From Octopus vulgaris (Eukaryota): a DNA stretch of 64,000 nt. The stretch lies in the NCBI GenBank assembly GCA_951406725.2, contig OX597816.1, forward strand, positions 148,986,001-149,050,000, written 5' to 3'. Shown here one piece after another: positions 521-59,960 of this stretch. The stretch's first letter is position 1; every line of letters begins with the position of its first letter. The translations under genes were made by a program, and so were the position numbers. The notes under the pieces were generated by a model, which was given only the letters and a program-made list of their open reading frames with translations, was not told where the DNA came from and did no database searches.

Positions 521-901
521 CTTGAGACTTGTACGATAAGTATTTGTCCTCTGTTTCTGAGCTTCCAATCTTGCCTGCCTTTGTTCTGGTGTTTCTGCCC
601 GCCGTCTAGCAAGCTCTCTTTGCCTATGATTTCGTAATCTTAATTGCCTTTCTTCTGCAGTTTCATTTTTCCGTCTTTCCTTTACCCTCATAGCATTCCT
701 ATAAGCATTTGTCTTCTGTTTCCGATCTTCTAATCTTGCTTGTCTTTGTTCTGGTGTTTCTGCCCGCCGTCTAGCAATCTGACTTTGCCTATGATTTCGT
801 AATCTTAACTGCCTTTCTTCTGTAGTTTCATTTTTCCGTCTTTCCTTTGCCTTCATAGCACTCCTGGTGAGACGACCCAGTGCTGATACTTTGGGAGGCA
901 T
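521..901 (-). CDS. First coding exon (4 STPR-like 23-aa repeats) of a further STPR-BTB paralog (copy 0); remaining exons lie left of the window
   Basis: ATG at 901, acceptor ttttctag at 914-915, donor AAG|GTAGAT at 521/520. Repeats ETTEERQLRLRNHRQSQIARRRA and ETPEQRQARL. Bases 1-520 are homologous to the intron following this exon in the other copies. Confidence 0.75.
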
Positions 902-2037
902 AACTTCATAACACTAGAAAACAAGACGTCCTATTATCAGAGAACATTGACACATTTTCTAGATATCTAAAACTAAAATTAGTACAATATCTTTTAAACA
1001 TGTTACAAGCAACAAATTATACCAATAATCCTTTCCCAATTATGTCTACAGAAAACTAGTATTTATATGAAGATTCCAACTGAAATCTTAGTGTATGGTC
1101 TTCACATTGCACAATATTGCTCTTTATAAACGGAGTGTAAGGGATTAGCTCCCCTTGAAAACTATTGTAAATTCGCCATTTTACTAGCGATTAAACTTTG
1201 TATATACTAACACGTATTGGGTCCAAAATCTAAACTCCTGACATACATACATACATATATATATATATAAAGCTGCTTTGCTGGAGTTAACGTGAGAAAA
1301 GTAGTAAAATGTGATTTAAAACATTGCCAAGATGGACACATATTTTAGTAATTAGTTCGATTCCAGGTTTGTAGTTTTATATCGAATTTAGAAATATCAG
1401 GGGGTTTTTTATTTAACACGAAGACAATTGGATATTTACCCGATATTTCATTTTAGATCTTTCAACATCACAAGGATACATATGTCAAGGAAATTTAATT
1501 GTAACACAAATTCTGAATTCGACGAAATCAATGAGTATCTACCTTTTAATCTATTCTGGTGATCGCTGCTCGTTTATTTTGTAAATAATGAACAGATTGG
1601 AACGATTGGGTGGTTTACTGATTTTGAAGTCACAGAATAAACTATATATTTTCGTGTTTAATTGAAGCACGTTCATAAATTATTCTTATTGATTCTAATT
1701 TTTATAAAGTCCCTAAGGCTTTGTATTTTCTTCCCAGAAAATTTGTTATAAGAAACAAATCGATTACAGAGTTGTTCTTTCCTAATATTTTTTAAAACGA
1801 ATTTTGCGTAATGAGGAGTTTTTCTAAAATTTTCTATACATTATATTTAATTAGGATATAGTATCACATATATGTAAAAGATAGTTATATGGTATAAATA
1901 TTTACCCATATATTATTCACTAAAGCGCGACAGGCATGATTAACCATTCATCGCAAAAAGAGAAAAACAATATAGGTAAGCAGGAGGAAACAAAAAATTA
2001 TAATATTTAAGATGTGAAAATAATAGAAACAAATTAA

Positions 2038-2110
2038 ACTTACCCGAGAAGGGCCAAAAGTTGGTGCAATGTTAGTTTCCAGAGCCTGCAGGTTCGATAA
2101 CTCACTCACT
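2038..2110 (-). promoter_or_regulatory. Putative non-coding first exon and donor site of copy 0
   Basis: Strong donor CGG|GTAAGT at 2044/2043 in a block conserved upstream of the paralogs; left boundary (TSS) unknown. Confidence 0.45.
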
Positions 2111-2624
2111 TAACTAGCCTCGGAAAAATCTGAATGCCAATGATATTGCCGCTGAGCAAAGCTTCAAATTTCAGTAAAATATAATTTAATGTTAGTTGGT
2201 TTAAAATTATTTACTTTTAAGTAAATATTTATATTCAAGTGAACGAAAATTGAGTGTAATTTCATAATGTAATCTTTGGAAAAGTGGTGACGATATGATT
2301 AACTAACCCAAATTTCCTGATGCAGACCACTATACCTATTGTTATTTGACAATATCAAAACCTGACGGTGCTATTGGTCTCAGGGGATCAGTGGTCGAAT
2401 AGTTGGAGTTAACAACAAACAAGATGAGGACAAATATCTGTCAAATGTAAATAATTCCTCATCTCTTAAATATAGAACCATATTAACCACATCAGTTTCA
2501 ATCAGTCTGACAGAGTTATAGCCTCAAAGATCAAGGACACCGCTTTTCCATTTTCTCACGTAATTTTGCTAAACAAAACTGAAAACATCATAAATCACAT
2601 CTTTACTGGCACTCTGCTGGTTAC

Positions 2625-7992: not shown

Positions 7993-10900
7993 TCAAGTAA
8001 GACCATCTGTTTTATATAAACCTGTATTTTTGACATTGGTAACTTGTGTTGATGATAATGGTAATCTGTCCCCTTCTGCTGTAAAAAGTCCTACAGGATA
8101 GACATCTTCATTGCTACCACAAATCACATTGTTGTCAATTAACTGAGTTGTTGTTGTTCGATTTAGTGATTTAGAAGAGTCTTCTCTTATGAGTCTTGAT
8201 TCAGAACACAGTTTTTCTTCACTATATGACACAGGAGATAAGTCAGAAACTGGAGAACTTTCAAATACATTACATTTTAATTTGGGTGATGTTCCATATA
8301 TCTTATTTGTTGTTGCTTTGCTATTTGTGGTATCTGAAAATGGTAAGCTAAAATCTGTAGTGGATATAGCTATGGAATTCAAAGGAGTGTTTAGCGCCTG
8401 AGAACTATCAGAAACTGAACTAGATGTTGAAGCTCTTTTATTCATTTGACCATATTTGTCATCATCAGGTCCTACAGGCTCGATTTTTACAGTGGGAAGA
8501 ATATCAGAACCAAATGGAGAGTTGCCACCGTTAGTGTCCAGAGATGCAGCCTCAAACTCTCGCTTAAAGATTCTGACTGTACCTTCTTTAAGCTGTGCTA
8601 ATTCATTCTGGGAAATCTCCTGCTTAATATCCTCAGTAGGAACAGCTGAAATATTAGATGGCATCTGCCGGGAATCATCAAATGCAGTGACTGTCGAAGC
8701 AAGTTGCTGACGTGTTCCACTTTGAAGATGAGCATCACACATATTTTGTAAATCTTTCATGTCTAATTGTTTTGCAATGACTTTTAGCTGTTGTAAAATA
8801 TTAAGATCAAGATCTAATAGTCCAGTATATATGTATTCAGCAAAAGCCATTAAAGCTTCTGTACTAACTACTTCAGGAAATTTTACTTCAAAAACCTGGG
8901 AAGAGATGTATGTACTAAATACTGAGAACAGTTTTGGAGACACAGCAGACAAAACAATTTTATGGACCTGAAATATAGTAAATGATAACAGTATGTTTAC
9001 AGCTTGCCAACAATACATTGATAGACACTTAAGAATCATGTTCATAAAATAGAAAAATGTAAGTTTGTTTTTCCAACTTTTACAAAAGCTACTGACTACC
9101 AAAAGCCATTGGAAGTTCATTTAAACTTCATTTATCTCAGAGAATTATTTCATTAATACTTTAACTAAATCAACTCCATTTTCTTTTCTGTAAAATATTC
9201 TATTGCATTTTAATGACTGAATCATAAAATTTTCTGATAATAATAAGACTCAATTGAATTCTATCTATAACTTCTGATAAAGGCATAAAAAATTTTATGA
9301 CTAATTAATTATAACAGATTTATCTAAAAATTGCACCAGTAAGAAAATACAAATCAACTAGACCTACCTTTAAGAAATATAGAGGGGAGTAGAATAAAGA
9401 ATATTGTGATATTAAGCACATTAGATCTTAAGCATAATCTTTTAGACTTACAAGCTAGATTTTTTAGTTATAATGATGATGACATTAGAAACAGTTTATA
9501 AATATGAAAAAGTTTACAACTGTATACTTACCATCACAGTAGATGAGCCATTGCTAATACTGGCATCACATAATTTCCTACTTCTCCACATAGATGCTAG
9601 GTTAGACATCACATAACGGTGATGACTAGTAACTAGCAATCTTTGTTTCGGTAAATCTGTTATTCTAATTATTGATTTAGATACAGTTGTTTGATTTGGA
9701 TCTTTCACCAGCTTTGATTTGGATGGAGTTATTTGAAATGGTGAAGTCAACACTTGAGCTGGTTTTGTAATATTTTGTGATGCTTGTGCTAAACTTGAAT
9801 CTTGCTGGACTGGCATTTTAGTAGTTAGATGTACACATTTTGAAGTCTTTGGAGATGATAAAGCACTGTCCATTTGCCTAAAATGAAAATTTGCAATTCA
9901 TTGAGAAGAAATATATATAAGAGAAAAACAATAACTCAACAGCATTGTCAAAATACCATTTTAGTTACCACATACCATCTGTCATGTGATTGTTGATTTT
10001 TTAACTTTTGATTCTGCAGGCGTTGCTCCCCAAGGTGCTGTGTTTCATTCTTTTTTTCTTGTATCATTTTCATCTGAGTATTGAGGAAGTGAGGCATGAT
10101 CAAAGAAAGATATAAAGAGATAAAAGAATAAAGATTTCAGTTCATTGGAAATAATTTGAACTATGACGAATTGATAAGTTATTTAATGCAAATGTCAATG
10201 ATAATTAAAAAGCTAACAAATAATATTTAATTTCCACATTGAAACTTTCACTAAGAAAAAATGGAATCTGTCAGCCACGTAAGTATATGGCAAATCCCCA
10301 AAAGCATTCAAAATCAACATGAACAGAGAATCTCTACAGAATTCCAAAATTGAAATGGGAATGGAGTTGGATGTTATACTTATCCTATTCTGAAATCTGA
10401 CATGGTGGTAGATTGTTATAATTTGACTTCAACATCAAATATATAGTAACTGCTGCCACAATTCACACAGACATTCTCTGGTAAATATTTTGCAGAAAAT
10501 TTTTCAACATTGTAATTCCTGATTGAACTTACAATTTACAATTGATCTGACAGCAGCTTCATTAAATTTGTATTTTTATCATATACACGGATTCCAATTT
10601 ATAATGGATAGTGATCCCTCAACACTGTATAGTGTACATGATACTGTATTGCAGGTGTGTATTTCTGTGTTGATGATAATATTAGATAATGAAGTACTGA
10701 GCATGCTTAGTTACTTGACCTGTCTGCTGATGTTTATCAATTGTACAGCTCCTAAACCTGATATGGAGATTCAAGGAAGGTTACAAAGTATGACTGAGCC
10801 TTAATTCATAATTTTATTGAGTTCATTTCTTATGAAAATTGTGGAGAGGCTGCAGTACTAAAAGTTTACATCACAAGAAACCTCATGTTATGAAGCTTCT

Positions 10901-12921
10901 TACGAGGGGTGTATGAAAAGTTTTGAGCCTAACCTAGAAACGGGGCTGCTAGGTAGCTGAAACAATTTTTTCTGGTAAGTACAGTCTTTTGGGAGTATTC
11001 TTGCTCATTTTCATGATTCTGATATTTTAATTTTTTTTGTTACAGATTTTTGAATAAGCAAGTGTCAAGGTTACAAGGAAAATAGAGAAAACTGAGTATC
11101 GTGCTGTCATAAAATACCTTTATTTGAAAGGCATGACTCCATCAGAAATCCATGAAGATATGGTGAGAACCTTAACAGACAGTGCTCCTTGATATGCAAC
11201 AGTCAAACTCTGGGTAAATAAATTCCAGTGTGGCAGGGAGAGTGTGGAAGATGATCCCACACCAGGGAGGCCTCCAACTGCAACCACCGAGGACAACATT
11301 GACCTTGCTCTTGGTATGATAATGCAAGATCATCGAATATCATGTCGTCAGATAGCTGAGAGACTGCGCATCTCAAATGAAAGAGCAGACAACATTGTGA
11401 CAAAAGAACTTGGGTTCTCAAAGGTTTCTGCTAGGTAGATCCCTTGCCTTTTGACTCCTGAACAGAAATGCATCCGGTGCACTTTGTTCATGAGTAATCT
11501 GGAACTGTTTGAAGCCGATGCAAAGAATTTTCTTGCTCGTTTTATTACTATGGACGAAAGTTGGGTTCATCACTACCAGCCTGAAACCAAAGAACAATCA
11601 AAGCAGTGGAAGCATACATCTTCTCCTACCCCAAAGAAGGCCAGGTCATTCTTTCAGCTGGCAAGGTCATGGCATCAGTTTTTTTGGATTCTCAAGGTGT
11701 CTTGCTGATCGATTACCTTGAAAAGGGTCACATCGTGACAGGGATGTATTATTCTCAGCTACTGTAATGCCTCCAGGAAGCAATCAAAGAAAAAAGGCCA
11801 GGAATGCTCACCAGAGGAATCCTTTTTCATCATGACAATGTTCCAGCCCATACCTCAGTGGTTGCCATAGCAACAATTCATGATTGTGGATACGAATTTG
11901 TTCCCCATCTGCCTTATTTGCCAGACTTAGCCCCCTCTGACTTTCATCTATTCCCAAAAATGAAAAAAGCCCTGGCTGGTCGCCATTTTGCCACTGACAA
12001 TGACGTCATAGACACTGTAGGAAGTTTCTTAGAGTCTCAAACAAAACAGTTCCTCTACGCCGGGATAATGGCACTTCAGCACCACTGGAGAAAGTGTTTA
12101 GCCATCAAAGGGGACCATGTTGAAAAATAAATCATCAGAAGTCTTGTACTATGTTTTGTTTTTTTGAGGCTCAAAACCTTTCAGACACCCCTCATAATAC
12201 ATTCATCCTACATATATCTTTGGTCTCTGAAATTAATTGCAATATCAATGATCTCACCAATAAATTCCATAAGCAGATCTTTGTTATATTTCTCCTATAG
12301 GTGTGTGATGCTTAAGAATGTATACCTGATATCTACCTTGAGACTTGTACGATAAGTATTTGTCCTCTGTTTCTGAGCTTCCAATCTTACCTGTCTTTGT
12401 CCTGCTGTTTCAGCCTGCTGACTAACAAATTGTCTTTGCCTTTGGTTTTGTAATCTTAATTGTTTTTCTTCTGTGGTTTCCCTTTTCTGTTTTTCTCTTG
12501 CCTTCTTAGCATGTTTGGTGAGATGGCCCAGTGATGTTAGTTTGGGATGCATAACTTCATTTGGTTGATCTTCATTCATGGAATTTCTTCGCTTTTGAAC
12601 TCTATTTCTCATATTCTGTAGATAAGTTTCCCTCTCCTCAGGATTCATGTTATTTCTTCTCTCCTGATCTTTGTCTCTTTTATTCTGAAGATAAAGTTCT
12701 CTCTCATGTTGGTCCATATTATTTCTTCTTTCACGATCTCTGTTTCTTCTATTCTGAAGATAAAGTTCCCTCTCCTCTTGGTTCATATTACTCCTTATTT
12801 TTTGCATACGTTCTCGAATACGGTCACGGACTGCTTGCCTCTCTTCTGTTGATAACCGCTGCCGTCGTCTTCTCTGTCTTTCTCTTGCTGCCGCTCTTTG
12901 TTGACTTATTCTCTCTTCCAT
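7993..12921 (-). CDS. STPR-repeat/BTB-POZ domain protein, copy A; join(12921-12337,10073-9976,9877-9532,8967-7993), about 667 aa
   Basis: GT-AG junctions with compatible phases (0,2,0) give one open frame. BTB motifs: LASMWRSRKLCDASI..VHKIVLSAVSPKL..AFAEYIYTG..IAKQLDMKDLQNMC. AATAAA on the minus strand about 60 nt after the stop. Confidence 0.85.
10903..12194 (+). mobile_element. Mariner (DD34D) transposon, full length, inactivated, in an intron of copy A
   Basis: About 28-bp TIRs (gaggggtgtatgaaaagttttgagcct), TA duplication at 10901-2 and 12195-6, empty site cttctTAatacat in paralogs. Motifs TMDESWVH, HHDNVPAH, PDLAPSDFHLF, with stops and a frameshift. Confidence 0.93.
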
Positions 12922-14239
12922 TTTTAAGAATAGTTGAATCTGTAAGCGATATAAGAAAAAAGCTCCCTTAGCCTGACAAACGCTGATGGTAAAAGCGTAT
13001 CAATATATAAAATACTAAAGCGAATTATATGTAATCAGTTTTAACTATGCTACAATGAATTTCTTCAGGAATATAATGCAACATTAAAATAGCTTTAGCT
13101 ACACTACATGCTTCCGTAAGAAATCTACTTGTGGAAGTCTACGGTCACATCCCACTATTTTTAATTTTCATAGGCTGTATGCAAATTGTGACCCAAAGAT
13201 AAAATTTGGGAATGTTATGCAAGTTTTTGTTTATTATTGAATATTCTCAATAATTATGAATTATTTCAGATGTATCGTATTTATGTATCCAGTGAAAAAC
13301 AAACAAAAAGAACCTCAAAGCTCCCACCTCCCGGGGATGTTGAAGTGAGCAATGCACAATGTGAAGTCGGTGAACTGTCAAATTGAAAACATAAAATTAT
13401 ATTGTATGAAAATGTATGATTATGTGTAGTATAACACAAAAATTATAAAAATTATTTGATAGTAAAATATGGTCACTATTTAAAGATGATTACATTTTTT
13501 AATGTTTTCCGTGAAGTTTTCACAGGTTGAGGTAGTTTATATAAATCTGTAGAATACGTCAGGTATATTTCATATGATAGATCGAAAGAAAGAGAGTGAA
13601 AGAGAAACAGAGAGAGGGACAGGCATTTATTAATAATATAACTATATATTAGGTTATTGTATGGAAGTATATGGGAAATACATGTTACAGAACTTTCCAA
13701 TATTATAGATAGATAATATATTGTCCTTTTCTTTTTACAAAATCAAGGGAAACAACTCGAATTAAATCCTGACTTATTTCCCTTGGTGTGACAAACACAG
13801 ACGGTATAAGCATATTATAATATAGAAGATGGTCTTCACTTGCACAATATTTGTCTTTTTAAAGGCAGTGTAAGGGATTAGCACTCACTTGCATTAGATT
13901 CAAAATCTGAACTCCTAAATTCGATAAATATATATATATAGCAGGAGTGCCCGGCGTTGCTAGTGGTATGAATGCTTCATCATTCTAAAAACACTTATAT
14001 TCTAGTCTAACAACTAGCGCTACCAAAACTTTTTTGAAAAACATACAGAATTCCATGCCAAAATGTACCAAAATTCACAAAAATATACACAATATTTTTG
14101 AAATGTCACGACCACAAAAATAGAGAAAAATACCAGTTTTTCAACATCTTTGTTCTGGCGAATGGCGTGTTGTTCTTTGTTTTCTGCAGACTGCACAGCA
14201 GCATTTGCTGTAGCATACCTGGCAGCAAAAGTTTTTTCT

Positions 14240-14729: not shown

Positions 14730-16617
14730 TAGATATTTCGCTACCAGGCATGGCGAATGGCAAGATGTTCTTCATTCTCCGCAATTCTTACAGCATTCCT
14801 GGCACAGCAAATGACGCGCTGTTCTTCATTCTTTGCAGTTCATGCAGCAGGGGTTGCTATAACTGTAGCATTCCTGGCATGGTGAATGGCATGCTGTTCT
14901 TTGTTCTCTGCAACTCACACAGCAGCAGTTGCTATAGCATCTTGTATGACAAATAATATGCTGTGACTGAATCAGGTTAGCGTATACTGTAGCTATTAAC
15001 GAAGCATTTCTGATCTGGCGACTGCTATACTGCTCTTTGCTTTCCATGGCTCTTGCGGTGACTGTGCAACCAGCATTTTGTGAATGTCTTCATGCAGTCT
15101 AGTGTGAGGATTCATTTGCTCTCCTTCTCTTCGATGTCTCAACTGCAGCAGTTTTGCAACCAATACGGGCTCTTTTCTTAGGTGGCATTATCTCAGAGTT
15201 TAGAAGCTTCAATTACAAAATGCAGATGTAGCAAAAGTAAATTTAAATACACAGAGGGCAAAAATTTCAGAGGGAGAAAACGAAGAAAATCAGTTGGAAA
15301 CTGCAGAAGTGTTTGGAGAAAAACCCATGTAAAACAGTTTTTCTAGATGGAAGTTAGTGTGTGTGTGAGTGAGTGAGAGAGAGACAGGGTGAAAGAAACA
15401 GACATAGACTAAAAGAGAGGAACTATTACAGAGGGTGAGAGAAAATATCAGTAAGCAACAGAAATAGAGAATGAGATGAGACAGAGAAGAGAGAAACAAA
15501 GAGAGAGAGAAAAGGAAGAGAATCGGTTGAAAATTGCAGAGGTTTTTAGAGAAAAACCCATGTCATCATCATCATTTAGCGTCCACTTTCCATGCTAGCA
15601 TGGGTTGGACAGTTCAACTGGGGTCTGTGAAGCCAGAAGGCTGCATTGGCCCAGTCTGATCTGGCAGTGTTTCTACGGCTGGATGCCCTTCCTAACGCCA
15701 ACCACTCCGTGAGTGTAGTGGGTGCTTTTTAGGTGCCACCCGCAGAGGTGCCAGATGGAGCTGGCAAACGGCCAGGGACGGATGGTGGTTTTTACGTGCG
15801 ACCGGCACGGAGGCCAGTCGGGGTGGCGCTGGCAATGGCCACAATCGGATGGTTCGCTTACTTGTCACCGGCACTGGTATCACAGCTGCAATTTCCATTG
15901 ATGTTGATCGACTTCGATTTTGGTTCTGCTTTCTGATATCTGATTTGATTTGATTTTGATATTGATTTTCACTTGCCTCAACGGGTCTTCACAAGTGGAG
16001 TTTTGTGTCCCAAGAAGGAAAGGTATGTATAAGTCGACTGACTACATACCAGGTAGAGGCCACGGGTTATGGTTTCACTAGTCTTGCCGGGTCTTCTCAC
16101 GCACAACATACTTCCATAGGTCTTGGTCTCTAGTCATTTCCTTGGTGAGACCTAAAGTTCGAAGGTTGTGCTTCACCACCTTGTCCCAGGTTTTCCTGGG
16201 CCTACCTCTTCCACAAGTTCCCTCAACCGCTAGGGTGTGGCACTTTTGCACACAACTATCTTCAGCCATTCTTGTCACATGACCATACCAGCGCAAACGT
16301 CTCTCTTGCACACCACAACTGATGCTTCTTAGGTCCAACTTTTCTCTCAAGGTACTTACACTCTGTCGAGTATGAACACTGACATTACACATCCATCGGA
16401 GCATACTGGCTTCATTTCTTGCAAGCTTACGCATATCCTCAGCAGTCACAGCCCATGTTTCACTACCATGTAGCATGGCTGTTTGTACACATGCATCATA
16501 CAGTCTGCCTTTTACTCTGAGCGAGAGGCCTTTTGTCACCAGCAGGGGTAAGAGCTCTCTGAAATTTGCCCAGGCTATTCTTACTCTAGCAGTTACACTT
16601 TCAGCACACCCACCCCC

Positions 16618-16831
16618 GGGTGCGACCTGCGATCGCGGCTTCGGTTGCATGTATTAGCTCTAGAATTGCCACAGTTATCCACTCTCCTCGCGGTGGAAGA
16701 ATACGGTCCCGAGGATTAGGTCCGGTTCCTGAGCCATTCGCGGTTTCACCATTCGTTTACGGCATGAACTTACACTTGCATGGCTTAAGCTTTGAGACAA
16801 GCATATGACTACTGGCAGGATCAACCAGGTA
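16618..16831 (-). rRNA. 18S rRNA 5'-end fragment (non-functional copy) embedded in the LINE
   Basis: Minus strand from 16831 reads TACCTGGTTGATCCTGCCAGTAGTCATATGCTTGTCTCAAAG..TTAAGCCATGCA..GTGAAACCGCGAATGGCTCA..GGATAACTGTGGCAATTCTAGAGCTAATACATGC, the universal eukaryotic SSU 5' end. Confidence 0.95.
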
Positions 16832-16982
16832 TCACCGACGTTTCAAAAGAACGAAGCGCGGCAGCTCGGGAAGCAGCCGCTGCCGATCGGTAAAAATGAG
16901 AAGAAAAGGAATCGGCGGGCCGAAAACAGAGGCGTGAGCGCTCACGAGTTCGGCCGCCGTTCGTATACGCGCACGCCTCCTT
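16832..16982 (-). other. Probable rDNA 5' external transcribed spacer fragment
   Basis: GC/CpG-rich non-LINE sequence directly upstream of the 18S 5' end. Confidence 0.7.
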
Positions 16983-39729: not shown

Positions 39730-41822
39730 TCAAGTAAGGCCATCTGTTTTATATAAACCTGTATTTTTGACATTGGTAACTTGTGTTGATGATAATGGTA
39801 ATGTGTCCCCTCCTGCTGTAAAAAGTCCTACAGGATAGACACCTTCATTGCTACCACAAATCACATTGTTGTCAATTAACTGAGTTGTTGTTGTTCGATT
39901 TATTGGCTTAGAAGGGTCTTCTTTTATGAGTCTAGATTGAGAACACAGTTTTTCTTCACTATATGACACAGGAGATAAGTCAGAAACTGAAGAACTTTCA
40001 AATACATTAGATTTTAATTTGGGTGATGTTCCATATATCTTATTTGCTGTTGCTTTGCTATTTGTGGTATCTGAAAATGGTAAGCTAAAATCTGTAGTGG
40101 ATACAGCTATAGAATTCAAAGGAGTGTTTAGTGCCCGAGAACTATCTGAAACTGAACTAGATGTTGAAGCTCTTTTATTCATTTGACCATATTCGTCATC
40201 ATCAGGTCCTACAGGCTCGATTTTTACAGTGGGAAGAATAACAGAACCAACTGGAGAGTTGCCACCGTTAGTGTCCAGAGATGCAGCCTCAATCTTTTGC
40301 TCAAAGAGTCTAACTGTATCTTCTTTAAGTTCTGCTAATTCATTTTGAGAAACCTCCCGCTTAATATCCTCAGTAGGAACAGCTGAAACATCAGATGGCA
40401 TCTGCTTGGTATCATCAAACGCAGTGACTGTTGAAGCAATTTGCTGACGTGCTCCACTCAGAAGATAAGCATCACACATATTTTGCAAGTCTTTCATGTC
40501 TAATTGTTTTGCAATGACTTTTAGCTGTTGTAAAATATTAAGATCAAGATCTAATAGTCCAGTATATATGTATTCAGCAAAAGCCATTAAAGTTTCTGTA
40601 CTAACTACTTCAGGAAATTTCACTTCATAAAACTGAGAAGAGATGTCTGTACTAATTACTGAGAACAGTTTTGGAGACACAGCAGACAAGACTATTTTAT
40701 GGACCTGAAATATAGTAAATGATAACAGTATGTTTATAGCTTGCCAACAATACATAGATTGACACTTAAGAGTCATGTTCATAAAACAGAAAAATGTAAG
40801 TTTGCTTTCCATACTTTTACAAAAGCAATTGACTACCAAAAGTCGTAAGTCACTGGAAGTTGATTTTAAACTTCATTCATTTCAAAGAGTTATTTCATTA
40901 ATACTTTAATTAAATCAACTCCATTTTCTTTTTCTGTAAAATATTCTATTGTATTTCAATGACTGAATCATAAAATTTTCTGATAATAATAAAACTCAAT
41001 TGAATTCTATCTATAACTTCTGATAAAGGCATAAAAGATTTTATGACTAATTTATTATAACAGATTTATCTAAGAATTGCACCAGCAAGAAAATACAAAT
41101 CAACTAGACCTACCTTTAAGAAATATAGAGGGGAGTAGAATAAAGAATATTGTGATATTAAGCACATTAGAAATTAAGCATAATTGTTTAGACTTGCAAG
41201 CAAAATTCTTTGCTTGTCATGATGATGACATTGGAAACAGTTGATAAATGTGAAAAAGTTTACAACTGTATACTTACCATCACAGTAGATGAGCCATTGC
41301 TAATACTGGCATCACATAATTTCCTATTTCTCCACATAGATGCTAGGTTAGACATGACACAATGTTCATGACTAGTAACTAGCAATTTTTGTTTCGGTAA
41401 ATCTGTTCTTCTAATTATTGATTTAGATACAGTTGTTTGATTTGGATATTTCACCAGCTTTGATTTGGATGGAGTTATTTGAAATGGTGAAGTCAACACC
41501 TGAGCTGGCCTTGTAATATTTTGCGATGCTTGTGCTAAACTTGAATCTTGCTGGACTGGCATTTTAGTTGGATGTACACATTTTGAAATCTTTGGAGTTG
41601 ATAAAGCACTGTTCATTTGCCTAAAATGAAAATTTGTAATTAATTCAGAATATATAAAAGAAAAATAGTAACTCAATAGCATTGTCAAAATACCATTTTA
41701 GTCATCACATACCATCTGTGATGTGATTGTTGATTTCTTAACATTTGATTCTCGTGTTGCTTCTTCAAGTGTTGCTCCCCAAGGTGCTGTATTTCTTTCT
41801 TTTTTTCCTGTGTCATTTTCAT
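39730..41822 (-). CDS. BTB-POZ domain protein, copy C, lacking the STPR exon; join(41822-41713,41620-41278,40704-39730), about 475 aa if started at the linker-exon ATG
   Basis: Three downstream exons are intact and in frame, and the linker exon begins ATG AAA ATG. Paralog homology breaks at about 42672 and resumes at about 50413 with no repeat exon between. Confidence 0.75.
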
Positions 41823-42670: not shown

Positions 42671-45600
42671 TCTATATCTATAAAACAGTCCTTGGATGAA
42701 AATTGTATGCACATTTTGCTTTGATGGTTAATGGCGGCCAAACCGAGGCTTGGATCAAGTTGAAAATTGGCAAGGATACTAAATGCATGGTGAGGATGAG
42801 ACCTGTGATGGTTAAAATTCACAAGCTATAAAGATGTGGTTGCTATGGCAAAAAGAGTGATTTTTTTATCGATTCAAGGGGCCCAGAGCCCCTCTAGGTT
42901 TGTGCGATTGGCTTTAAATGCCCAGTGGCATGCACTGCAGGCTGTTGTGCTTAATAAACATACATTTTGTCACGAAATTCCGGCTACTAGGGAACGATTT
43001 TTCATTGTGAAAAAATGATTGCTTTTTGCCCTCATTTTCTTTTTAATTTCTTACTACTTACATTGTTGGCATTTTCAGAAAAAAAATTATATCTACATGT
43101 AGCCCTTCAGAAGGGCTATCATGCACATTTTTCTTGACGCGAAATCTTGCTTTCAAAGTCAAAAACACTTAACAATTAAACAAAAATGTTGAATATTTTC
43201 TGTCATGTACAGCTTAATATAACATCATCGTTGTGAGCTGCAACTTTGCCACAAGAGAATTATCAATTTTTTTCACGGCTGCATAAACTAATTAAGCCAC
43301 AGTTCTAGCAATCTTATGAAAGCTGCCGATGACATGTGTTTTCTTCATTGAAAAGTCATTTGGATGTAAAATACATGTTTTTTTCAAAAAAAGAGAAAAA
43401 CAAATAATGATCACGTGTTAAAAAAATTGGGGAATCTAATGAGACAAGATTTAAGTCTCAATCTAGAAAGATGTGTTTGCATTGGTCAAAAGAGTACTTT
43501 TTTCGATTTAAGGGGGCTCTCACAACAGCCCAGTGACCGTCATGATATAGTCGCCAGAGTCTTTCACCTCAAATTAAATCTCCTGATGTTCTTGCTGAAA
43601 AAGGAGAAAATCTATGGACCTCTGAATGTATAGATGTATACTGTGGAGTGGCAGAAGCAAGGTCTTTCACACAAACACATTCTCATTTGGTGTAAGGAAA
43701 AAATCAAACCTGCAGATATTGATAGAGTTATCAGTGTTGAGCTTCCAGATCCCACCACTGATCCACAACTTCACAACATTGTTTTGACCAACCTTCTGCA
43801 CGGACCCTGCGGCCCTCTTAACCCCAGAAAAGCATCTATGGAGAACAACAAATGCAGCAAGCAGTACCCCAAGGACTTCGTGAGCGCAACTTGCATAGAA
43901 ACCCACAGCTATCCCATCTACCAATGGCACACTCCAGATTTTGGCAGCATTTCTGTTGAGGTGAGGAAGGACAGTGTCACATACTTCACTGACAACAGCT
44001 GGGTTGTGCCTTACAGGCCCCAACTTGCAAAAATTTTCAATGCACACATCAATGTTGAGAGCTGCACCTCCATCAGGAGCATCAAGTACATCAACAAAGG
44101 CAGTGACATGGTGGTGTTGATGAAGACAGCGGAGTGGATGAAGATGATGTGAAGACAGTGGAGTTGATGAAGATGATGTGAAGACAGCGGAGTTGATGAA
44201 GACAACGTGAAGACAGCGGAGTGGATGAAGACGACATGAAGACAGTGGAATGGAAGGGGTGATGTGAAGACAGCGGAATGGAACGGACGACATGAAGACA
44301 GTGGAGTGGATGAAGACAACGTGAAGACAGTGGAGTGGTTGAAGACGACGTGAAGACAGCGGAGTGGATGAAGACGACGTGAACACAGTGGAATGGTAGG
44401 GGTGACGTGAAGACAGCGGAATGGAACGGACGACATGAAGACAGTGGAGTGGATGAAGACTACATGAAGACAGCGGAGTGAATGAAGATGACATGAAGAC
44501 AGCAGAGTGGATAGAGATGATATTAGACAGGCAGAGGATGAAAGTGAGGAAGAGTGAATGGGAGTTGATTGGAGGGGAAAGTGAATGGATAGGGCGTTGC
44601 GTTGGCTGGCGGCATGTGTGGAGTTGTGTTTGATCATTGAAGTGCTACTTTATAGATGACATTTTTTGTTTTACAAGATTGCTGCAAAACCAACGTACAG
44701 TTAACCATGAGTAAAAACGTCCTGCATCAGGTTTAGTCCAACGACTTGAAGTGATTGACCTTGTGCTTTATTGATACTCATTCCAAAACACACTTTAATT
44801 GGAAATTGTTTGTGTGTAAACTCGAATGGACAGTCGGATGGACTTAGACTTAGGGGAGTTAGCAATTTTGTCATGCCTGCAGATAAGAATGGTTGTGGTG
44901 AGAATGCGAGTGCTGATGGCTGTGATGATAAGTCTTGTTCTGTTGCACAGTTCTGGTGGGTCGATGTTCCTAAGCAGCATAACTGGAGCACCGACTTTGA
45001 GTCTGAGGTCATGGGAAGGAAGCCCGGAAGGTTGTTGGGTGTTGAGGAATTCAGCAGGATAGTTGATAGCGTCATAAGCATTGTTTGTAGTGTCGATGGA
45101 CTTAAATGACACTTTGTTCCCAGGAATGCAGTTGAGGAGTTTTTGATTCATAGTATCGACAGTTGCGTTGTGTGTGGCTAAAATGGCTCGACCTGTAGCC
45201 AGCTGGGATTATGAAAGTTTGCTTCAAGGTCTGGAAAAACTGCCAAGATTAAATCTTCGATGCTTTCAACAAAATTTCCAAAGGGGAGATGAATATGGTC
45301 TGCATCGATGGCAGGTGCAGTTCCGTTTCCAACATTGAGCAGCTGTCTGGAGAATTCTTCAGAATCTGCATCCCCATGCAAATGCACTCTCATGTTGGTG
45401 GTGAGGTGAAGTTTCTCAACATGGCGCCAAAGGTGAGACGATTTGATGCATGCTTTCACTTCATCTGCTCTTGTGCTGCTGGTGATTACAGGAAGTGTCT
45501 GTTGGAAATCTCCAGCCAAAAGTACTGTCACACCACCCATCAGTCTAGCATTTCGACGCAGGTCTTGAAGAGTCCGATCAAAAGCCTCAAAAGCTGACTT

Positions 45601-47900
45601 GTTGCTCATTGTTGCCTCATCCCAAATAATTAGACAGCAATCAGAAAGAAGTTTTCCTCTGGGCATGCCTCAATTTATTCTGCATATAGGATTCTGCATA
45701 TAGGATTCTCCTTTCTTGCAATATCCAATGGCAATTTGAAGGCTGAATGTGCTGTTTTACAGCCATGCAACAAAGTCACTGCAATTCCACTTGATGCAGC
45801 TGCCAAAGCGATTCTCCTGTCTTTTCGCAGTTTTGCAAGTAGAAGGTTGATGACAAATGTTTTGCCTGTGCCACCTGGAGCATCCAAAAAGAAAAGTGTA
45901 CCTTCATTTGAAATGACACTGGAAAAATTCTGTTGTACGCGAATTGCTGTTCAACCAAAAGTTTGGATTCATTTCGAGCCACCATTTTGGTTAATTCTTC
46001 AAGGTTGTAGTACAATTCCGTGATGTATTCTGAATCTAAAATGCCATCTCTGTAGACAGGGTTTGGAATACCGAAATGAGATACACCGTCGAATCCAGCA
46101 GCTCAGAGACGCCTATCGATATAAAGGAGCGCCTCGTTGTAGATTTCATTGTTGTATTCTCTTGCGTGTAGTCTTCACAAGATGTCCTCCGACATGCTGT
46201 TTTTGTGCATTTCCCACAGCTGTAGGGGTTTACTTACATCGCAGAATCACAGCATACTGCAGAACAATCACCGCATCTCCGTCATGCTCCATCGTGAAGC
46301 TGTGTGTATTCAGCAGCTCAGAGCTCCTTTGGTGAGTGCAGATGTAGAGAAGACGTTCGGATTCAATTTTGGCATACATGTCAACAAAGAACTGATTAGT
46401 GACATCTTTGAACCGTAGCAGCTTGTTGAAATCGTTATCCCGAACCATCATTCGGTAGGCATAAAATGCCTTGCAAGAAACTTTTTTGCACAGGAACTCG
46501 AGTTGTTGGGTGTATCCGTTGTATGTGGAAGTGGTAGCCATCGTCACCACGTGGAAACAAGAGTGAATACTGAAGACAGTTGTAGGAGCAGTGGGTTTTG
46601 GAGACAAATGACAATCGGTTACTTCGGTGTTGGAGAACAATGTCGTGGGTGCTGTGTTCTTTGTCAACCATGATGGCTGCAATTTCGCTGGTTGTCGGAG
46701 CGTTGAATCTTCGAGGATGTTCGCCGGCTGGTGTCTTGTCAGCTCAGATGACCAGTTTCATTTCAGGTCTGGAGTCCAAAAATTCAGTAGCAACTTTCAG
46801 ATCGTGGACGTATGGATGGGTTTCATGAAGCATTGTTTGAAGTTCTTCAATGACGCTGCCATTAATGGAGGTATTTCTGCTACATCTAAGGGATGGTTCT
46901 TCTTCATTTCTGCCCATGAAGACTTGCATAAATCTCGGCTCCTCTCCTTGCTGTGGTCGAAGTTTCCAATCAAGTGGTAACACTGGCCTTGAATTTTTTA
47001 AGTGTAAAGTTTTTCTCTGGGCCTGGTTTGATCAGTTCGAGAAGTGCCAGCAACATCTGTGTTGTCGATGTTTGTTCTAGCATTTTGTCCATCCCTAATA
47101 CCGAAAGACGTCATTGCGAAGCAGGAATTGTACTTCTACAAATTCTTGCGAAATAATTTCCCGTGGTCTGAGTTACCGGTGAGAAGATCACAGAGTAATT
47201 GAGGAGGCTCAGCCAGTGGCTCAAGATTAACTTTGGTCCCGGAACAGCAAAGGCCCGGAGTCTCACATTTCCACTTTTTGGCTCCGCAGAAGTTGCACAC
47301 TTTGTCCATCTTTCCAGTAGACACATCAGCTCGACTGGCGTAGTCATAGGCAGGGTCGTAGTTGAAGGCAACCGAGGAAACGAACTGTTGACCAGGAGAA
47401 TTATAATTCATTTTAATAAAAGCATCAATTTAAAAAAAAAAAATAAAGTAGTAACAAATGAAAATTTAGCACAAAAAATGTGGAGGCTTCTAAATAAATG
47501 TTCAAATATAAAAGATACAAATATAGACGGCGAATTAAAATAAAGCACAGTTCAGATATAATAAACGTGCATTAAAAATTGAAATTGCTGTAGGTTAAGT
47601 AATACAGGAACCGAAAAAAGATTGTTCAAATAATCGACCCATGAAATTTGTAGTGTGTTGATTGGGTAAATCGTTTTAGAAAATATTTAATTAAATATTT
47701 ATTTAAAAAATTTTTATTCAAAAAACGTACGTGATAAGCACAAAGCAAATGCTTGATGGCAGGTTCTCTTTTTATTTGCTCCATCGGCGAGTTTTGGGCG
47801 GTTGAGGATTCCAAGGAGTGAGCCTTCATGGAGAAAAGGTGGAAAAAAGCAATGTGCTAAAAAAATTATTATTATCTAGTCAGTTTTTCTCAGTAAATTT
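42671..47900. mobile_element. Rearranged, degraded RepHel Helitron complex
   Basis: TCTATATCTATAAAA 5'-type end at 42671. Plus-strand Rep motifs at 43510-44115 (DIVARVF, VEWQKQGLSHKH, HGPCG, WVVPY, HINVE). Minus-strand Zn-finger (47411-47136, CNFC..CC), YAYRMM/FFVDMYAKIE, and Pif1 helicase (GGTGKT, IIWDEATM, GDFQQTLPV, NMRV, SINKAQGQSL). Confidence 0.9.
44121..44512. repeat. About 29-bp minisatellite, about 13 units
   Basis: Unit gaagacagcggagtggatgaagacgacgt with variants; lies just 3' of the minus-strand helicase. Confidence 0.9.
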
Positions 47901-48415
47901 CAAAAGAACGAAGAGCTCATTTAAATTTAATGTATAAAATATGAATACGTTTTGTTTTTGTAATTGGCAGTTAAAGCATGGAAAAAATGTGCTTTAAGTA
48001 TAGCTTAGAAAAATGGAGAAAAAATAATGAATGAGGGATTATTTTAATGATTTTAATGTTGTCAGTAAAGTAAAATGTAAAAAAATAAATTTTAAAAAAA
48101 GGAATCTGATCACCAGAACGCGAGCGAATAGCCCATATCAGAAGTATTTTTCTTTTAGGTAAAAAGGCTATTTATTAATCAAAAAATTACCCGAGCATGT
48201 GCCTTCCTCTTTCGCAATTTCCTCATTCTAGCTCGGTGGTTTGATAAGTTGGAGCGCTTACGCATAGGCATATTGAAAAGCAAATCTGAAAAATAAAATA
48301 TTTTGAAACCAAAAGATGATTTGATTTACAATGAGAAAAGGAATAAAATAGTTGAGAAGGGATTCAAAATCTGGACTTCGGAATGTATATGTATGTATAT
48401 ATATATATATATATA

Positions 48416-51875: not shown

Positions 51876-51944
51876 TAATTTTTATTTTTTCCTTCAACGC
51901 AGAATTTTTTTTTATTATACTGTTGTTTTATTATATTAGTGCAC

Positions 51945-53800: not shown

Positions 53801-53817
53801 CTAAGCATTCGAGTCTC

Positions 53818-56349: not shown

Positions 56350-59300
56350 TCAAGTAAAACCATCTGTTTTATATAAACCTGTATTTTTGACATTGGTAAC
56401 TTGTGTTGATGATAATGGTAATCTGTCCCCTTCTGCTGTAAAAAGTCCTACAGGATAGACACTTTCACTGCTAACACAAGTCACATTGTTGTCAATTGAC
56501 TGAGTTGCTACAGTTCGAGTTAGCGGATTAGAAGTGTCTTCTCTTAAGAGTCTAGATTGAGAACACAGTTTTTCTTCACTATATGACACAGGAGATAAGT
56601 CAGAAACTGGAGAACTTTCAAATACATTAGATTTTAATTTGGGTGATGTTCCATATATCTTATTTATTGTTGCTTTGCTATTTGTGGTATCTGAAAATGG
56701 TAAGCTAAAATCTGTAGTGGACACAGCTATAGAATTCAAGGTAGTGTTCAGAGTCTGAGAACTATCTGAAACTGAACTAGATGTTGAAGCTCTTTTATTC
56801 ATTTGACCATATTCGTCGTCATCAGGCCCTACAGGCTCGATTTTTACAGTGGGAAGAATAACAGAACCAAATGGAGAGTTGCTATCCTTAGTGTCCGGAG
56901 ATGCAGCCTCAATCTTTTGCTCAAAGAATCTAACTGTATCTTCTTTATGTTCTGCTAATTCATTTTGAGAAACCTCCCGTTTAATATCCTCAGTAGGAAC
57001 AGCTGAAACATCAGATGGCATCTGCCTGGTATCATCAAACGCAGTGACTGTTGAAGCAATTTGCTGACGTGCTCCACTCAGAAGATGAGCATCACACATA
57101 TTTTGTAAGTATTTCATGTCTAATTGTTTTGCAATGACTTTTAGCTGTTGTAAAATATTAAGATCAAGATCTAATAGTCCAGTATATATGTATTCAACAA
57201 AAGCCATTAAAGTTTCTGTGCTTACTTCAGGAAATTTCACTTCATAAAACTGAGAAGAGATGTATGTACTAATTACTGAGAACAGTTTTGGAGATACAGC
57301 AGACAAAACTATTTTATGGACCTGAAATAAAGTAAATGATAACAGTATGTTTATAGCTTGCCAACAATAAAATGATACACACTTAAGAAACATGATTATA
57401 AAGTGGAAAAATTTACTACAAAACCTATTGACTACCAAAAGTGTCAAGCCACTGGAAGTTAATTTAAACTTCACTTATCTCAAAGAGTTATTTCATTAAT
57501 GCTTTAATTAAATCAACTCCATTTACTTTTTCTGTAAAATATTCTATTCCGTATTAGTAAGCAAATGTTTCAGAAAAAGTTATTGTCAATGATGGAATCG
57601 TAAAACTAAAGGCTACACCTACCTTTGAGAAATACAGAGAGACTAGCTATTTTGACCCTTAATTCGCTCGGATTTTGGTGGTGGTGTTGTTTTGTGTGTG
57701 TTGTCTCCTTTTCCCTCTCTTCTTTTGTTCGTCTTCTTTGCCTGGTTCTTTTTATTGTCCTCTTCTTTTTCTTATTTAAAAATTTTTTTCTTTGTCTTTA
57801 TCTTCTTGAAAACTAAATTTTCCCCATATTCTTCACAATGGCAACAAAATAGTTGTCGCGAGCGACTTGCAACCCTCCTCACACCATTGCCCACTCCATT
57901 TTACCCCCCCCAGTGTAAATTTTGGTGCCAATCCGACCCCATCTACCGCCACTTAAATCATTCCCATCCCAAAATGAGACAAATAACCAAGAAATCAAAC
58001 AACTTTTTTGCATTTCAGCTTTTTAGATATTGAAGTAGAAGAAAGAATATCTTGATATTAAGCACATTAGACATTATGCATAAATTTTTGGACTTACAAG
58101 CAAAATTCTTTGCTTATCATGATGATGACATTAGAAACAGTCTATAGATGTGAAAAAGTTTACAACTGTATACTTACCATCACAGTAGATGAGCCATTGC
58201 TAATACTAGCATCACATAATTTTCTACTTCTCCACATAGATGCTAGGTTAGACATCACATAACGGTGATGACTAGTAACTAGCAATTTTTGTTTCGGTAA
58301 ATCTGTTTTTCTAATTATTGATTTAGATACAGTTGTTTGATTTGGATCTTTCACCAGCTTTGATTTGGATGGAGTTATTTCAAATGGTGAAGTCAACACC
58401 TGAGCTGGCTTTGTAATATTTTGCGATGCTTGTGCTAAACTTGAATCTTGCTGGACTGGCATTTTAGTTGGATGTACACATTTTGAAGTCTTTGGAGATG
58501 ATAAAGCACTGTCCATTTGCCTAAAATGAAAATTTGTAATTAATTCAGAAGAAATGTATGAGAGAAAAATAGTAACTCAACAGCATTGTCAAAATACCAT
58601 TTTAGTCATCACATACCATCTGTCATGTGATTGTTGATTTCTTAACATTTGATTCTGGTGTTGCTTCTTCAAGTGTTGCTCCTCAAGGTGCTGTATTTTG
58701 TTCTTTTTTTCCTGTATCATTTTTATCTGAGTGTTGAGGAAGTGAGGCACGATCAAAGAAAGAAATAAAAAGATGAAAGACTAATGAATTCATTTAAATG
58801 GAAATAATTGAGACTGTGATGAATGGATAAGTTATTTTAATGAAAATGTCAAAGATAACTGAAAATTCTTGTTTATAAGGCTGACAAATAATGCTTAATT
58901 CCCATATTGAAACTTCCACTAAGAAAAAATGAAATCTGTTAGCCACATAAGTATATGGTAAATCCACAAAAGCATTCAAAATCAATCAGAACAGAGAATC
59001 TCTACAGAATTCCAAAACTGAAATGAGAATGGAGCTGCATGTTATACTTATTCTATTCTGAAATCTGACATGGTGGTAGATTGTTGTAATTTGACTTCAA
59101 CATCAAATATATAGTAACTGCTGCCACAATTCACACAAGACTTTCTCTGGTAGATTTTCTGCAGAAAATTTTTCAACATTATAATTCCTGATTGAGTTTA
59201 CAATTGATTTAACAGTAACTTCATTAAATTTGTATTTTTATCATATACATTGATTCCAAAGTTATATTCAATTTATAATGGATAGTGATTCCTCAACACT

Positions 59301-59960
59301 GTATAGTGTACATGATACTGTATTGCAGGTGTGTATTTCTTTGGTGCTGATAATACCAGATAATGAAGTACTGAGCACACTAAGTTACTTGACCTGCCTG
59401 CTGATGTTTATCGATTGCACAGCTCCTAAACCTGATATGGAGATTCAATGAAGCATACAAAGTATGACTGAGCCTTAATTCATGATTTTGTTCAGGTGCA
59501 AGGCGAGGCTGGCAACGGCCACGATCGGTCGGTGCCAATTCTTAATGAAAATTGTGGAGAGGCTGTAATACTAAAAGTTGACATCACAAGAAACTTCATA
59601 TCATAAACCTTCTTAATACATATATCCTTGGTCGCTGAAATTAATTGCAATATTAATAACCTCGCATATAAATTCCATAAGCAGATCTTTGTTATATTTC
59701 TCCTATTGGTGTGTGATGCTTAAGAATGTATGCCTGATATCTACCTTGAGAGTTGCACGATAAGCTCTTGTCCTCTGTTTCTTAGCTTCTAATCTTGCCT
59801 GCCTTTGTTCCACTGTTTCTGTCTGCCGACAAACCAATTGTCTTTGCCTATGATTTTGTAATCTTAATTGCCTTTCTTCTGTGGTTTCCCTTTGACGTTT
59901 TTCTCTTGCCCTCCTAGCTTCTTTGGTGAGACTGCTCAGTGATGATCGTTTGGGGCGCAT
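56350..59960 (-). CDS. STPR-repeat/BTB-POZ domain protein, copy D; join(59960-59745,58726-58617,58520-58178,57321-56350), about 546 aa
   Basis: Same splice sites and phases, open frame, 2 STPR-like repeats plus BTB. Confidence 0.85.
57643..58033 (-). mobile_element. Short non-autonomous Helitron in the last intron of copy D
   Basis: CTAG at 57643-46; 5' TCAATATCTAAAAAGCTGAAATGC resembles the 50412 end; absent in paralogs. Confidence 0.6.

What the first reader, a model, noticed from the sequence alone, without database searches (positions are those of the whole stretch)
521..59960. Tandem family of STPR-repeat + BTB/POZ fusion genes
Seen: in A, B and D a basic exon of 23-aa ETxEE/QRxxRL repeats splices in frame (phases 0,2,0) through a 98-110 nt linker exon, which the ORF track misses, into a BTB domain. 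Exon indels between copies are multiples of 3, implying selection. Established: 23-aa E..RL repeats define the STPR DNA-binding domain (silkworm FMBP-1, human ZNF821), and BTB transcription factors normally have BTB at the N-terminus with zinc fingers C-terminal. Inference: this is a lineage-specific, recently expanded family of zinc-finger-less BTB regulators with the reverse architecture. I do not know of a description of this combination.
Basis: partly seen in the sequence, partly recalled or inferred. Interest (0 to 1): 0.88.

Follow-up and report, generated by a model that had tools for sequence, protein, structure and literature searches.

The report
Octopus BTB genes with transposon-derived heads
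A row of spliced octopus genes joins a short basic repeat module, likely taken from rolling-circle (Helitron) transposons and predicted to grip DNA, to a BTB protein-pairing domain; they are single-headed daughter copies of a neighbouring gene with about thirty interchangeable heads, so they likely show how new gene regulators are assembled from transposon parts.

Summary
Copies A, B, D (and Z at the left edge) have open four-exon frames with phases 0, 2, 0. Contigs of probable RNA runs join D's repeat exon to its BTB exons in 3 of 4 runs laid. The 23-residue repeats keep STPR's core residues, but only Z passes the Pfam cut-off, and B and D have just two repeats.

These genes are partial duplicates of a mother gene about 120 kb upstream, which splices about 30 alternative DNA-binding exons (THAP, CENP-B, Psq, FLYWCH, DUF3504 and others) onto one BTB body. 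This scan found that gene before on other DNA (e1-8668573). Head-before-BTB is therefore the family norm.

STPR heads are likely Helitron 5' ends: clear for neighbour H (87% DNA identity to a dispersed element), only suggestive for the window heads. Heads A, D and Z have orthologues in O. bimaculoides, and STPR-BTB also occurs in Argonauta, so the family is not very recent. Amino-acid constraint is seen in BTB, not between paralogous heads. DNA binding and dimerisation are untested. I found no description of STPR-BTB in print. Verdict: new variant of transposase-domain capture.

The parts
521..913 (-). Copy Z head exon: ATG at 901, four ET-type 23-aa repeats in two pairs (165-nt internal duplication), phase-0 donor after 521; its body lies left of the window
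   Evidence: Pfam STPRs 29.1 bits; best PDB hit FMBP-1 5d23, E 0.0078. Acceptor at 913 is predicted from sequence.
12337..12939 (-). Copy A head exon: ATG 12921, 195 aa, three 69-nt M-type repeats plus two ET-type repeats; extra in-frame donor at 12391
   Evidence: annotated as P0035 (donor 12337) and P0003 (donor 12391); orthologue P0005 91%. Acceptor at 12939 is predicted from sequence.
9976..10073 (-). Copy A linker exon (98 nt), homologous to the 3' end of the mother gene's first constant exon
9532..9877 (-). Copy A exon 3, ends in the first part of the BTB domain
7993..8967 (-). Copy A last coding exon: rest of BTB and low-complexity tail
   Evidence: Pfam BTB 36.1 bits
30865..31092 (-). 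Copy B head exon: ATG 31080, 24-aa Helitron-like leader plus two ET-type repeats
   Evidence: annotated as P0235
27682..29669 (-). Copy B body: exons 29669-29560, 29463-29121, 28656-27682
39730..41822 (-). Copy C body: exons 41822-41713, 41620-41278, 40704-39730; open frame, no STPR exon upstream
59745..59972 (-). Copy D head exon: ATG 59960, leader plus two ET-type repeats; second donor 11 nt downstream gives a head-only peptide; a non-coding 5' exon lies outside the window at G000:C3:149053239
   Evidence: orthologue P0236 89%
56350..58726 (-). Copy D body: exons 58726-58617, 58520-58178, 57321-56350
   Evidence: all three introns bridged by contigs
58965..59233 (-). Decayed copy of the mother gene's nearest head exon (C2H2-like) in D's intron; also at 42022-42326 (C), 29871-30150 (B), 10260-10535 (A)
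   Evidence: 67-69% DNA identity to G000:C3:149174851-149175170; stops and frameshifts
14829..15188 (-). Decayed Helitron 5' end with STPR-type leader, 2.3 kb upstream of A's head
   Evidence: 44% to Helitron L042 N-terminus, E 1e-6
44700..48271 (-). Decayed Helitron upstream of the headless copy C; annotation splices its first exon onto C's body (unverified)
   Evidence: PIF1 114 bits; P0242 and P0243
63623..64000 (-). Part of a decayed Helitron lying between D's 5' exon and D's head; its N-terminus (G000:C3:149051169) has the leader most like the window heads

Best explanation
These are spliced, single-headed daughter copies of a neighbouring many-headed BTB gene, each joining a basic STPR-like head, likely taken from the front of a Helitron transposase, to a BTB body, and they would work as dimeric DNA-binding regulators. 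Shown: exon structure, open frames, splicing of D, descent of the body from the mother gene's 3' end (same introns and phases, plus a dead copy of the mother's nearest head exon in each copy). Inferred: the Helitron origin of the window heads (about 0.65; shown for neighbour H), and homogenisation of the bodies by gene conversion while the heads stay distinct. Predicted from FMBP-1 and ZBTB proteins, untested: BTB dimerisation would pair two short heads, so that two-repeat heads (B, D) reach the three to four helices that FMBP-1 uses on AT-rich major grooves, and the BTB body would recruit co-regulators, most likely repressors.
For: Mother gene: RefSeq isoforms numbered up to X36 share the body; 22 of 22 distinct head donors mapped in G000 are GT and in phase with the nearest downstream shared exon; Pfam names their domains. 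Twelve bodies lie in tandem on one strand at C3:148.965-149.173 Mb, five more at 151.27-151.38 Mb. Z, A, B, C, D, F and two O. bimaculoides proteins form one clade (100/100). STPR core residues E1, T/S2, R9 and L10 are present in 10 of 10 ET-type repeats, R6 in 8 of 10 (residue roles from PMC4856987). Helitron link: 5 of 6 inspected top STPR loci of the genome are Helitron N-termini. The only non-self hit of D's head is a decayed Helitron (E 0.0085). Window leaders score 16-32.5 against 3 of 3 Helitron leaders (shuffle p <= 0.004). H's head is 87% identical over 1.8 kb to a dispersed copy and 75% to two elements that run on into Helitron Rep sequence. STPRs are reported almost only in HLE1 Helitrons (PMC11417382). 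Heads pair by orthology across species, bodies B, C, D group by species.
Against: STPR profile scores are under the cut-off for A, B and D, and full-length P0035, P0233 and P0235 get no STPR hit. FMBP-1's DNA-contact residues Y16 and R20 are present in 0 and 2 of 10 repeats. B and D have two repeats where three were sufficient in FMBP-1; two were not reported in what I read. dN/dS between paralogous heads is 1.0-1.6, on only 5-7.5 synonymous differences. A profile of the four heads found 9 longer proteins, all of this Octopus family and no Helitron, at E <= 0.01, and the heads have no DNA similarity to the Helitrons tested. The non-Helitron head I1 also scores 22 in the leader test (p 0.001). 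The runs are RNA by guess only. C has lost its head and F's is truncated.
Confidence: 0.6

Rival explanations
1. The head is mainly a basic nuclear-localisation and general chromatin tether. The proteins act through BTB, as modulators or dominant-negative partners of the mother gene's isoforms or as ubiquitin-ligase adaptors, not as sequence-specific factors.
For: Two repeats only in B and D, Y16 and R20 mostly absent; dN/dS about 1 in heads but 0.18-0.62 in BTB for 9 of 10 pairs; C keeps an open body without a head; STPR contributes to nuclear localisation in FMBP-1 and ZNF821 (PMC4821344, passages); the best PDB match of the BTB is a Kelch-family BTB (6n34).
Against: Orthologous heads are kept at 89-91% between species, more than the post-BTB tails (81-84%); E1, T/S2, R9, L10 are invariant; nearly all other heads of the family are DNA-binding domains; no BACK or Kelch domain in these proteins.
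Confidence: 0.2
2. The window heads descend from the mother gene's own STPR-like cassette (G000:C3:149190032) or another old host STPR exon, not from a separate Helitron capture.
For: The mother has such a cassette with a phase-0 donor; it is related to the heads of copy I (75% DNA) and of cluster 2 (43% aa, E 8e-4), so STPR heads are old in the family; I1's leader scores 22 against the window leaders; no Helitron hit.
Against: No DNA match between the mother cassette and window heads; the mother cassette's leader scores only 12 (p 0.06); the S-[LI]-G-R-x-T leader at a fixed 16 residues before the first repeat is shared with Helitrons and H; of the heads lying between that cassette and the body, only the nearest left a remnant in the window copies.
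Confidence: 0.15
3. The array works as one complex locus: heads and bodies of neighbouring copies are joined by long-range splicing, giving combinatorial isoforms.
For: Annotated models mix copies: O. bimaculoides LOC106877738 X1 and X2 put A-type and B-type heads on one body; P0243 joins C exons to B's last exon; P0006 has a B-like start on a Z-like head and body.
Against: In one search D's joints all link D's own neighbouring exons, and D has its own 5' exon with no homologue near other copies; 90% identical paralogues easily mislead annotation; the laid stretch held one copy only, so joints between copies could appear only as loose ends.
Confidence: 0.1
4. The copies are redundant duplicates drifting towards loss.
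For: dN/dS near 1 outside BTB; heads lost or truncated in C and F; heavy transposon insertion between copies.
Against: 0 stops against 5.4 expected and 4 of 4 in-frame indels, while the co-duplicated C2H2-like exon decayed in every copy; orthologues intact in O. bimaculoides; spliced contigs.
Confidence: 0.05

Closest known systems
Host-transposase fusion genes such as KRABINER (Cosby et al., bioRxiv 10.1101/2020.05.07.082677; passages read)
   Same: A transposon DNA-binding domain on its own exon is spliced to a host regulatory domain; fusions start as alternative isoforms and later become the sole product.
   Different: Host domain is BTB and lies C-terminal; donor is likely a Helitron (the words Helitron and BTB occur 0 times in that text); capture is repeated many times in one gene family; binding to the donor transposon is untested here.
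STPR proteins: Bombyx FMBP-1 (PDB 5d23; PMC4856987, first fifth of text and passages read; PMC4821344, passages) and human ZNF821; Pfam PF21107
   Same: 23-residue basic repeats with E1, T/S2, R9, L10.
   Different: Two repeats in B and D instead of four; Y16 absent and R20 rare; N-terminal position with a Helitron-like leader; fused to BTB.
Drosophila mod(mdg4) and lola (BTB type from PMC11426971, abstract and introduction read; their alternative-exon layout and trans-splicing are recalled, from no call)
   Same: One BTB body combined with many alternative DNA-binding exons, true of the mother gene.
   Different: Variable exons are 5' here; BTB is not TTK-type (no FxLRWN motif); no head on the opposite strand among 37 mapped clusters; the window copies carry one head each.
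Octopus THAP-BTB and CENP-B-BTB proteins (Mukherjee and Moroz 2023, PMC10027918; passages read)
   Same: Notes that most Octopus THAP and CENP-B factors carry BTB.
   Different: Counts them as separate genes and treats BTB as the transposon part; 'isoform' and 'alternative' occur 0 times in the main text; STPR and BTB together did not bring the paper up. Supplements not read.
STPRs in HLE1 Helitrons (HELIANO, PMC11417382; passages read)
   Same: STPR is a stable part of HLE1 elements.
   Different: The passages treat it as a domain captured by Helitrons; here the flow is from Helitron to host gene (clear for copy H).

Membership tests
STPR domain (PF21107) | Strict 23-residue basic repeat | tested here: met
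   Best lag 23 in 4 of 4 heads, p <= 0.0055; Z has one 32-residue step from an internal duplication
STPR domain (PF21107) | Glu1, Thr/Ser2, Arg9 in each repeat (PMC4856987) | tested here: met
   10 of 10 ET-type repeats; the pattern that picked them requires E1 and T/S2, so only R9 and L10 are an independent test; A's three extra repeats start with Met
STPR domain (PF21107) | Pfam score over the curated cut-off of 27 bits | tested here: inconclusive
   Z 29.1; D 17.7, B 14.4, A none; relatives P0084 50.1 and P0087 66.1
STPR domain (PF21107) | Three or more tandem repeats and FMBP-1's phosphate contacts Y16 and R20 | tested here: not met
   B and D have two repeats; Y16 0 of 10, R20 2 of 10
STPR domain (PF21107) | Binds AT-rich DNA in the major groove | not testable with these tools
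   needs EMSA or SELEX
BTB/POZ domain | Pfam PF00651 over cut-off, whole domain | tested here: met
   43-48 bits, profile positions 4-106 or 4-108 of 110
BTB/POZ domain | Dimerisation through the N-terminal extension | not tested
   PDB alignments reach the N-terminal region of ZBTB-type BTBs; the complex predictor was not available and the fold job did not finish
ZBTB (BTB-C2H2) transcription factors | N-terminal BTB followed by C2H2 zinc fingers | tested here: not met
   BTB is internal and no finger is found
TTK-type BTB factors (mod(mdg4), lola) | N-terminal FxLRWN motif (PMC11426971) | tested here: not met
   the region reads differently in all copies (alignment)
mod(mdg4)/lola-like variable-exon locus | Many alternative DNA-binding exons on one BTB body | tested here: inconclusive
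   met for the mother gene (22 of 22 donors; annotation-based), not for window copies, which have one head each
Host-transposase fusion gene | The captured domain traces to a transposon family | tested here: inconclusive
   met for copy H; motif-level only for window heads, negative
Host-transposase fusion gene | Fusion made by splicing and transcribed | tested here: met
   D joint in 3 of 4 runs guessed to be RNA
Host-transposase fusion gene | Binds the cognate transposon | not testable with these tools
   needs ChIP or EMSA with Helitron ends

The most novel reading that the evidence does not exclude
The array is a transcription-factor assembly line caught at every stage. A BTB body is duplicated, captures the DNA-binding arm of a Helitron or other DNA transposon as a new first exon (fresh in copy H, old in the window), bodies are homogenised, and loss of an intervening body turns neighbouring genes into alternative heads of one gene, which is how the 30-head mother arose. 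The STPR-BTB proteins would bind Helitron-derived sites genome-wide and serve cephalopods as KRAB-transposase fusions serve tetrapods; Helitrons would be a recurrent source of STPR transcription factors.
Probability: 0.2. Interest if true: 0.85.

Novelty: new variant of a known kind. Interest (0 to 1): 0.62.

Why it matters
Capture of transposase DNA-binding domains is a known route to new transcription factors, documented mostly for cut-and-paste transposons and KRAB in vertebrates. Here the acceptor is a BTB body in cephalopods and one donor is the Helitron STPR arm, with old, young and failed captures side by side on one chromosome. It offers a direct test of whether STPR repeats move from Helitrons into host regulators, and of how a many-headed gene and single-headed daughters interconvert. 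The heads are short and differ between paralogues, so their binding can be measured with simple assays.

Tried and rejected
No listed run is on record as RNA; this is no evidence either way. Protein Atlas on A's head: STPR clusters at ranks 2 and 3 with scores 0.83 and 0.82, under the 0.9 bar, a lead only; structure search TM under 0.4. Search of longer proteins with the four heads gave no Helitron. blastn of heads against 10 loci (nine Helitron-type, one cluster-2 head) gave one irrelevant 27-base hit. The complex prediction for mother BTB with window BTB was not available, and the fold of P0035 had not finished at submission: no structural evidence. Rfam and tRNA scans found nothing. Heads on the opposite strand (mod(mdg4)-type trans-splicing): none among 37 clusters, but the queries were annotated isoforms, which cannot show trans-splicing. 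A further coding exon after the last exon was considered; all annotated proteins end at the same stop. Positive selection on heads: dN/dS 1.0-1.6 cannot be told from neutral; head versus BTB differs in 2 of 3 pairs (p 0.02, 0.04, 0.33). Range outside cephalopods: the one named non-cephalopod mollusc hit that I checked (Lymnaea P0115) has an internal BTB with no Pfam head; 20 of the 150 listed hits were looked up by name, so range is open. Literature: STPR+BTB gave one irrelevant paper; locus identifiers gave none; searches gave no description of this family. The library lacks most subscription papers, and supplements of PMC10027918 and PMC11417382 were not read and may list these accessions.
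Full report
Setting. The window is G000:C3:148986001-149050000. Its BTB exons match annotated Octopus proteins, one at 100% (P0003). I name the copies by position: Y and Z (left), A, B, C, D (window), F, G, H, I, J and M (right).

The observation. The frames are open (A 667, B 547, D 546 aa; Z 624 aa with its body outside the window). C has an open body and no head exon. Exon indels are multiples of 3 in 4 of 4 cases against 11 of 44 outside exons, and 0 stops are seen where 5.4 are expected. Contigs of four runs guessed to be RNA were laid on D: the head-to-linker joint appears in 3 of 4 runs (3 studies), the two later joints in 4 of 4, and a second donor 11 nt downstream in 2 of 4. That donor gives a head-only peptide in all four copies. 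A loose end at D's acceptor maps exactly to a non-coding exon 7.3 kb upstream.

The domains. BTB passes Pfam's cut-off over its whole length and matches Kelch-family and ZBTB-type BTB structures. The heads have a 23-residue period. R9 and L10 are present in 10 of 10 ET-type repeats and R6 in 8, but Y16 in 0 and R20 in 2; Yu et al. (PMC4856987; first fifth of the text and passages) give E1, T/S2, R9 as the conserved core and R6, R9, L10, Y16, R20 as phosphate contacts. Only Z passes the Pfam STPR cut-off, and its best PDB hit is FMBP-1 (E 0.0078). So the heads are STPR-like, short (two repeats in B and D) and diverged.

The mother gene. The closest non-window relatives are isoforms of one gene (O. 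bimaculoides LOC106877732, numbered to X36; O. sinensis LOC115209932) that share a BTB body and differ in the N-terminus. In G000 this gene, M, lies about 120 kb beyond the window on the same strand. Its heads spread over 180 kb. Of 22 distinct head donors mapped from annotated isoforms, 22 are GT and in phase with the nearest downstream shared exon: 10 THAP, 3 CENP-B/Tc5, 3 DUF3504, 2 Psq, 1 FLYWCH, 1 Brinker, and 2 weak hits (HTH, C2H2-like). About eight more candidates show in an ORF scan, one STPR-like. Three mapped THAP heads stop before the last zinc ligand, which a shared exon supplies.

The window genes are daughters of M's 3' end. They keep M's introns and phases; the linker exon matches the end of M's first constant exon; and each copy holds a decayed copy of M's nearest head exon in its intron. 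That dead exon is an internal control: it collected stops and frameshifts while the STPR exon beside it stayed open. Twelve bodies stand in tandem here and five in a second cluster 2.1 Mb away. An STPR-type head lies upstream of 11 of these 17 bodies; for M and one of I's two heads this rests on likeness to cluster-2 heads, not on a period or a Pfam hit. Others carry FLYWCH, CENP-B, THAP or ZSWIM3-type heads. Head-before-BTB is thus the family norm. STPR plus BTB over both cut-offs is annotated in O. vulgaris (P0084) and Argonauta (P0087).

Age and selection. Z, A, B, C, D, F and two O. bimaculoides proteins form one clade (100/100). Heads pair across species (A 89%, D 89%, Z 72%; B unresolved at 71%) more closely than among paralogues (56-71%), whereas bodies B, C and D are 89-91% alike within this genome and D is 85% like its O. 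bimaculoides orthologue. I infer duplication before the species split and later homogenisation of bodies. dN/dS is 0.18-0.62 in BTB for 9 of 10 pairs, about 1 in the flanks and 1.0-1.6 between heads A, B and D, with few synonymous sites.

Where the heads came from. Of 50 genome matches to Pfam STPR I inspected 6: five are N-termini of Helitron transposases and one is a cluster-2 head. HELIANO reports STPRs almost only in HLE1 elements (PMC11417382, passages). Copy H is a clear capture: its head and upstream DNA are 87% identical over 1.8 kb to a dispersed copy and 75% to two elements that continue into Helitron Rep sequence, and it is fused in frame inside BTB exon 3; its expression is unknown and I saw no such fusion among four O. 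bimaculoides isoforms. For the window heads the evidence is weaker: the only non-self genome hit of D's head is a decayed Helitron (E 0.0085), and the 24-residue leader matches 3 of 3 Helitron leaders and H (p <= 0.004) but also I1 (p 0.001). Against it, a database search found no Helitron and there is no DNA match. I put a Helitron origin at about 0.65.

How it likely works. From ZBTB proteins (PMC11426971, introduction) the BTB would dimerise and recruit co-regulators. From FMBP-1, each repeat would lie as one helix over 4 bp of AT-rich major groove. A dimer would bring two short heads together, which could make two-repeat heads sufficient. None of this was tested, and no structure prediction was obtained. 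The main rival is that the head is a nuclear and chromatin tether and the proteins modulate M's isoforms through BTB.

Comparison and verdict. It works like host-transposase fusion genes (bioRxiv 10.1101/2020.05.07.082677, passages), and M resembles mod(mdg4) and lola in reverse (their layout is recalled). It is not a ZBTB or TTK-type family member. Mukherjee and Moroz (PMC10027918, passages) saw THAP and CENP-B with BTB in Octopus but as separate genes. My searches found no account of STPR-BTB proteins or of Helitron arms captured by BTB genes; supplements and subscription papers were not seen.

Noticed in passing
G000:C3:149174839-149354295 (L013-L031): Mother gene with about 30 alternative head exons in four tiers, each splicing to the nearest of four shared acceptors.
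   Followed up: yes
G000:C3:149210897-149227135 and shared exon 149197473 (L015, L017, L018): Split THAP domains: four head exons end just before the last zinc ligand, and the shared exon supplies the His; an unsplit relative sits at 149178040.
   Followed up: partly
L006:9480-9932 (copy H): Helitron 5' end fused in frame inside a BTB exon; a young capture, expression unknown.
   Followed up: partly
P0004, P0029, P0030 (O. bimaculoides): A THAP exon heads two different BTB genes in O. bimaculoides; in G000 it has 23 dispersed matches, many with stops, none at this locus, so it looks like a young transposon captured in that species.
   Followed up: partly
G000:C3:151253200-151382695 (L047-L060): Second cluster on the + strand: five BTB bodies with THAP, Brinker, CENP-B and STPR heads.
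   Followed up: partly
window 59734-59744; also A, B, Z: Conserved second donor 11 nt downstream of the head exon gives a head-only peptide or a decay target; seen in 2 of 4 runs. In D it is a GC donor.
   Followed up: partly
window 12391: A single change in copy A creates a strong in-frame donor that cuts the last repeat short; one annotation uses it (P0003).
   Followed up: partly
window 48191-48271 and G000:C3:149074228-149074323: Related Helitron first exons lie upstream of the two copies that lost their STPR head (C, F); annotations splice them onto the bodies (P0242, P0243, P0002), unverified.
   Followed up: partly
   Followed up: no
window 16081-17585 and 52734-53513: LINE fragments (reverse transcriptase 44.6 bits; endonuclease below cut-off). 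Rfam found nothing at gathering score in the window, so the pre-rRNA noted at 16618-16982 (e1-9582499) is not supported by that scan.
   Followed up: partly
window 19092-19445 and 11193-12127: Mariner-type transposase fragments; the first has a Mos1 HTH (45.6 bits), the second sits in A's first intron and had no Pfam hit (mariner label from motifs, recalled).
   Followed up: no
window 44121-44542 and 14792-14936: A 29-nt tandem array beside the Helitron remnant, and a 75-nt duplication inside the decayed STPR-type Helitron end.
   Followed up: no
P0067, P0125 (unnamed Logan proteins): P0067 has a basic repeat-like head on a family BTB and groups with cuttlefish-type bodies; P0125 has DUF3504 on a more distant BTB. 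Both hint at a wider range.
   Followed up: no
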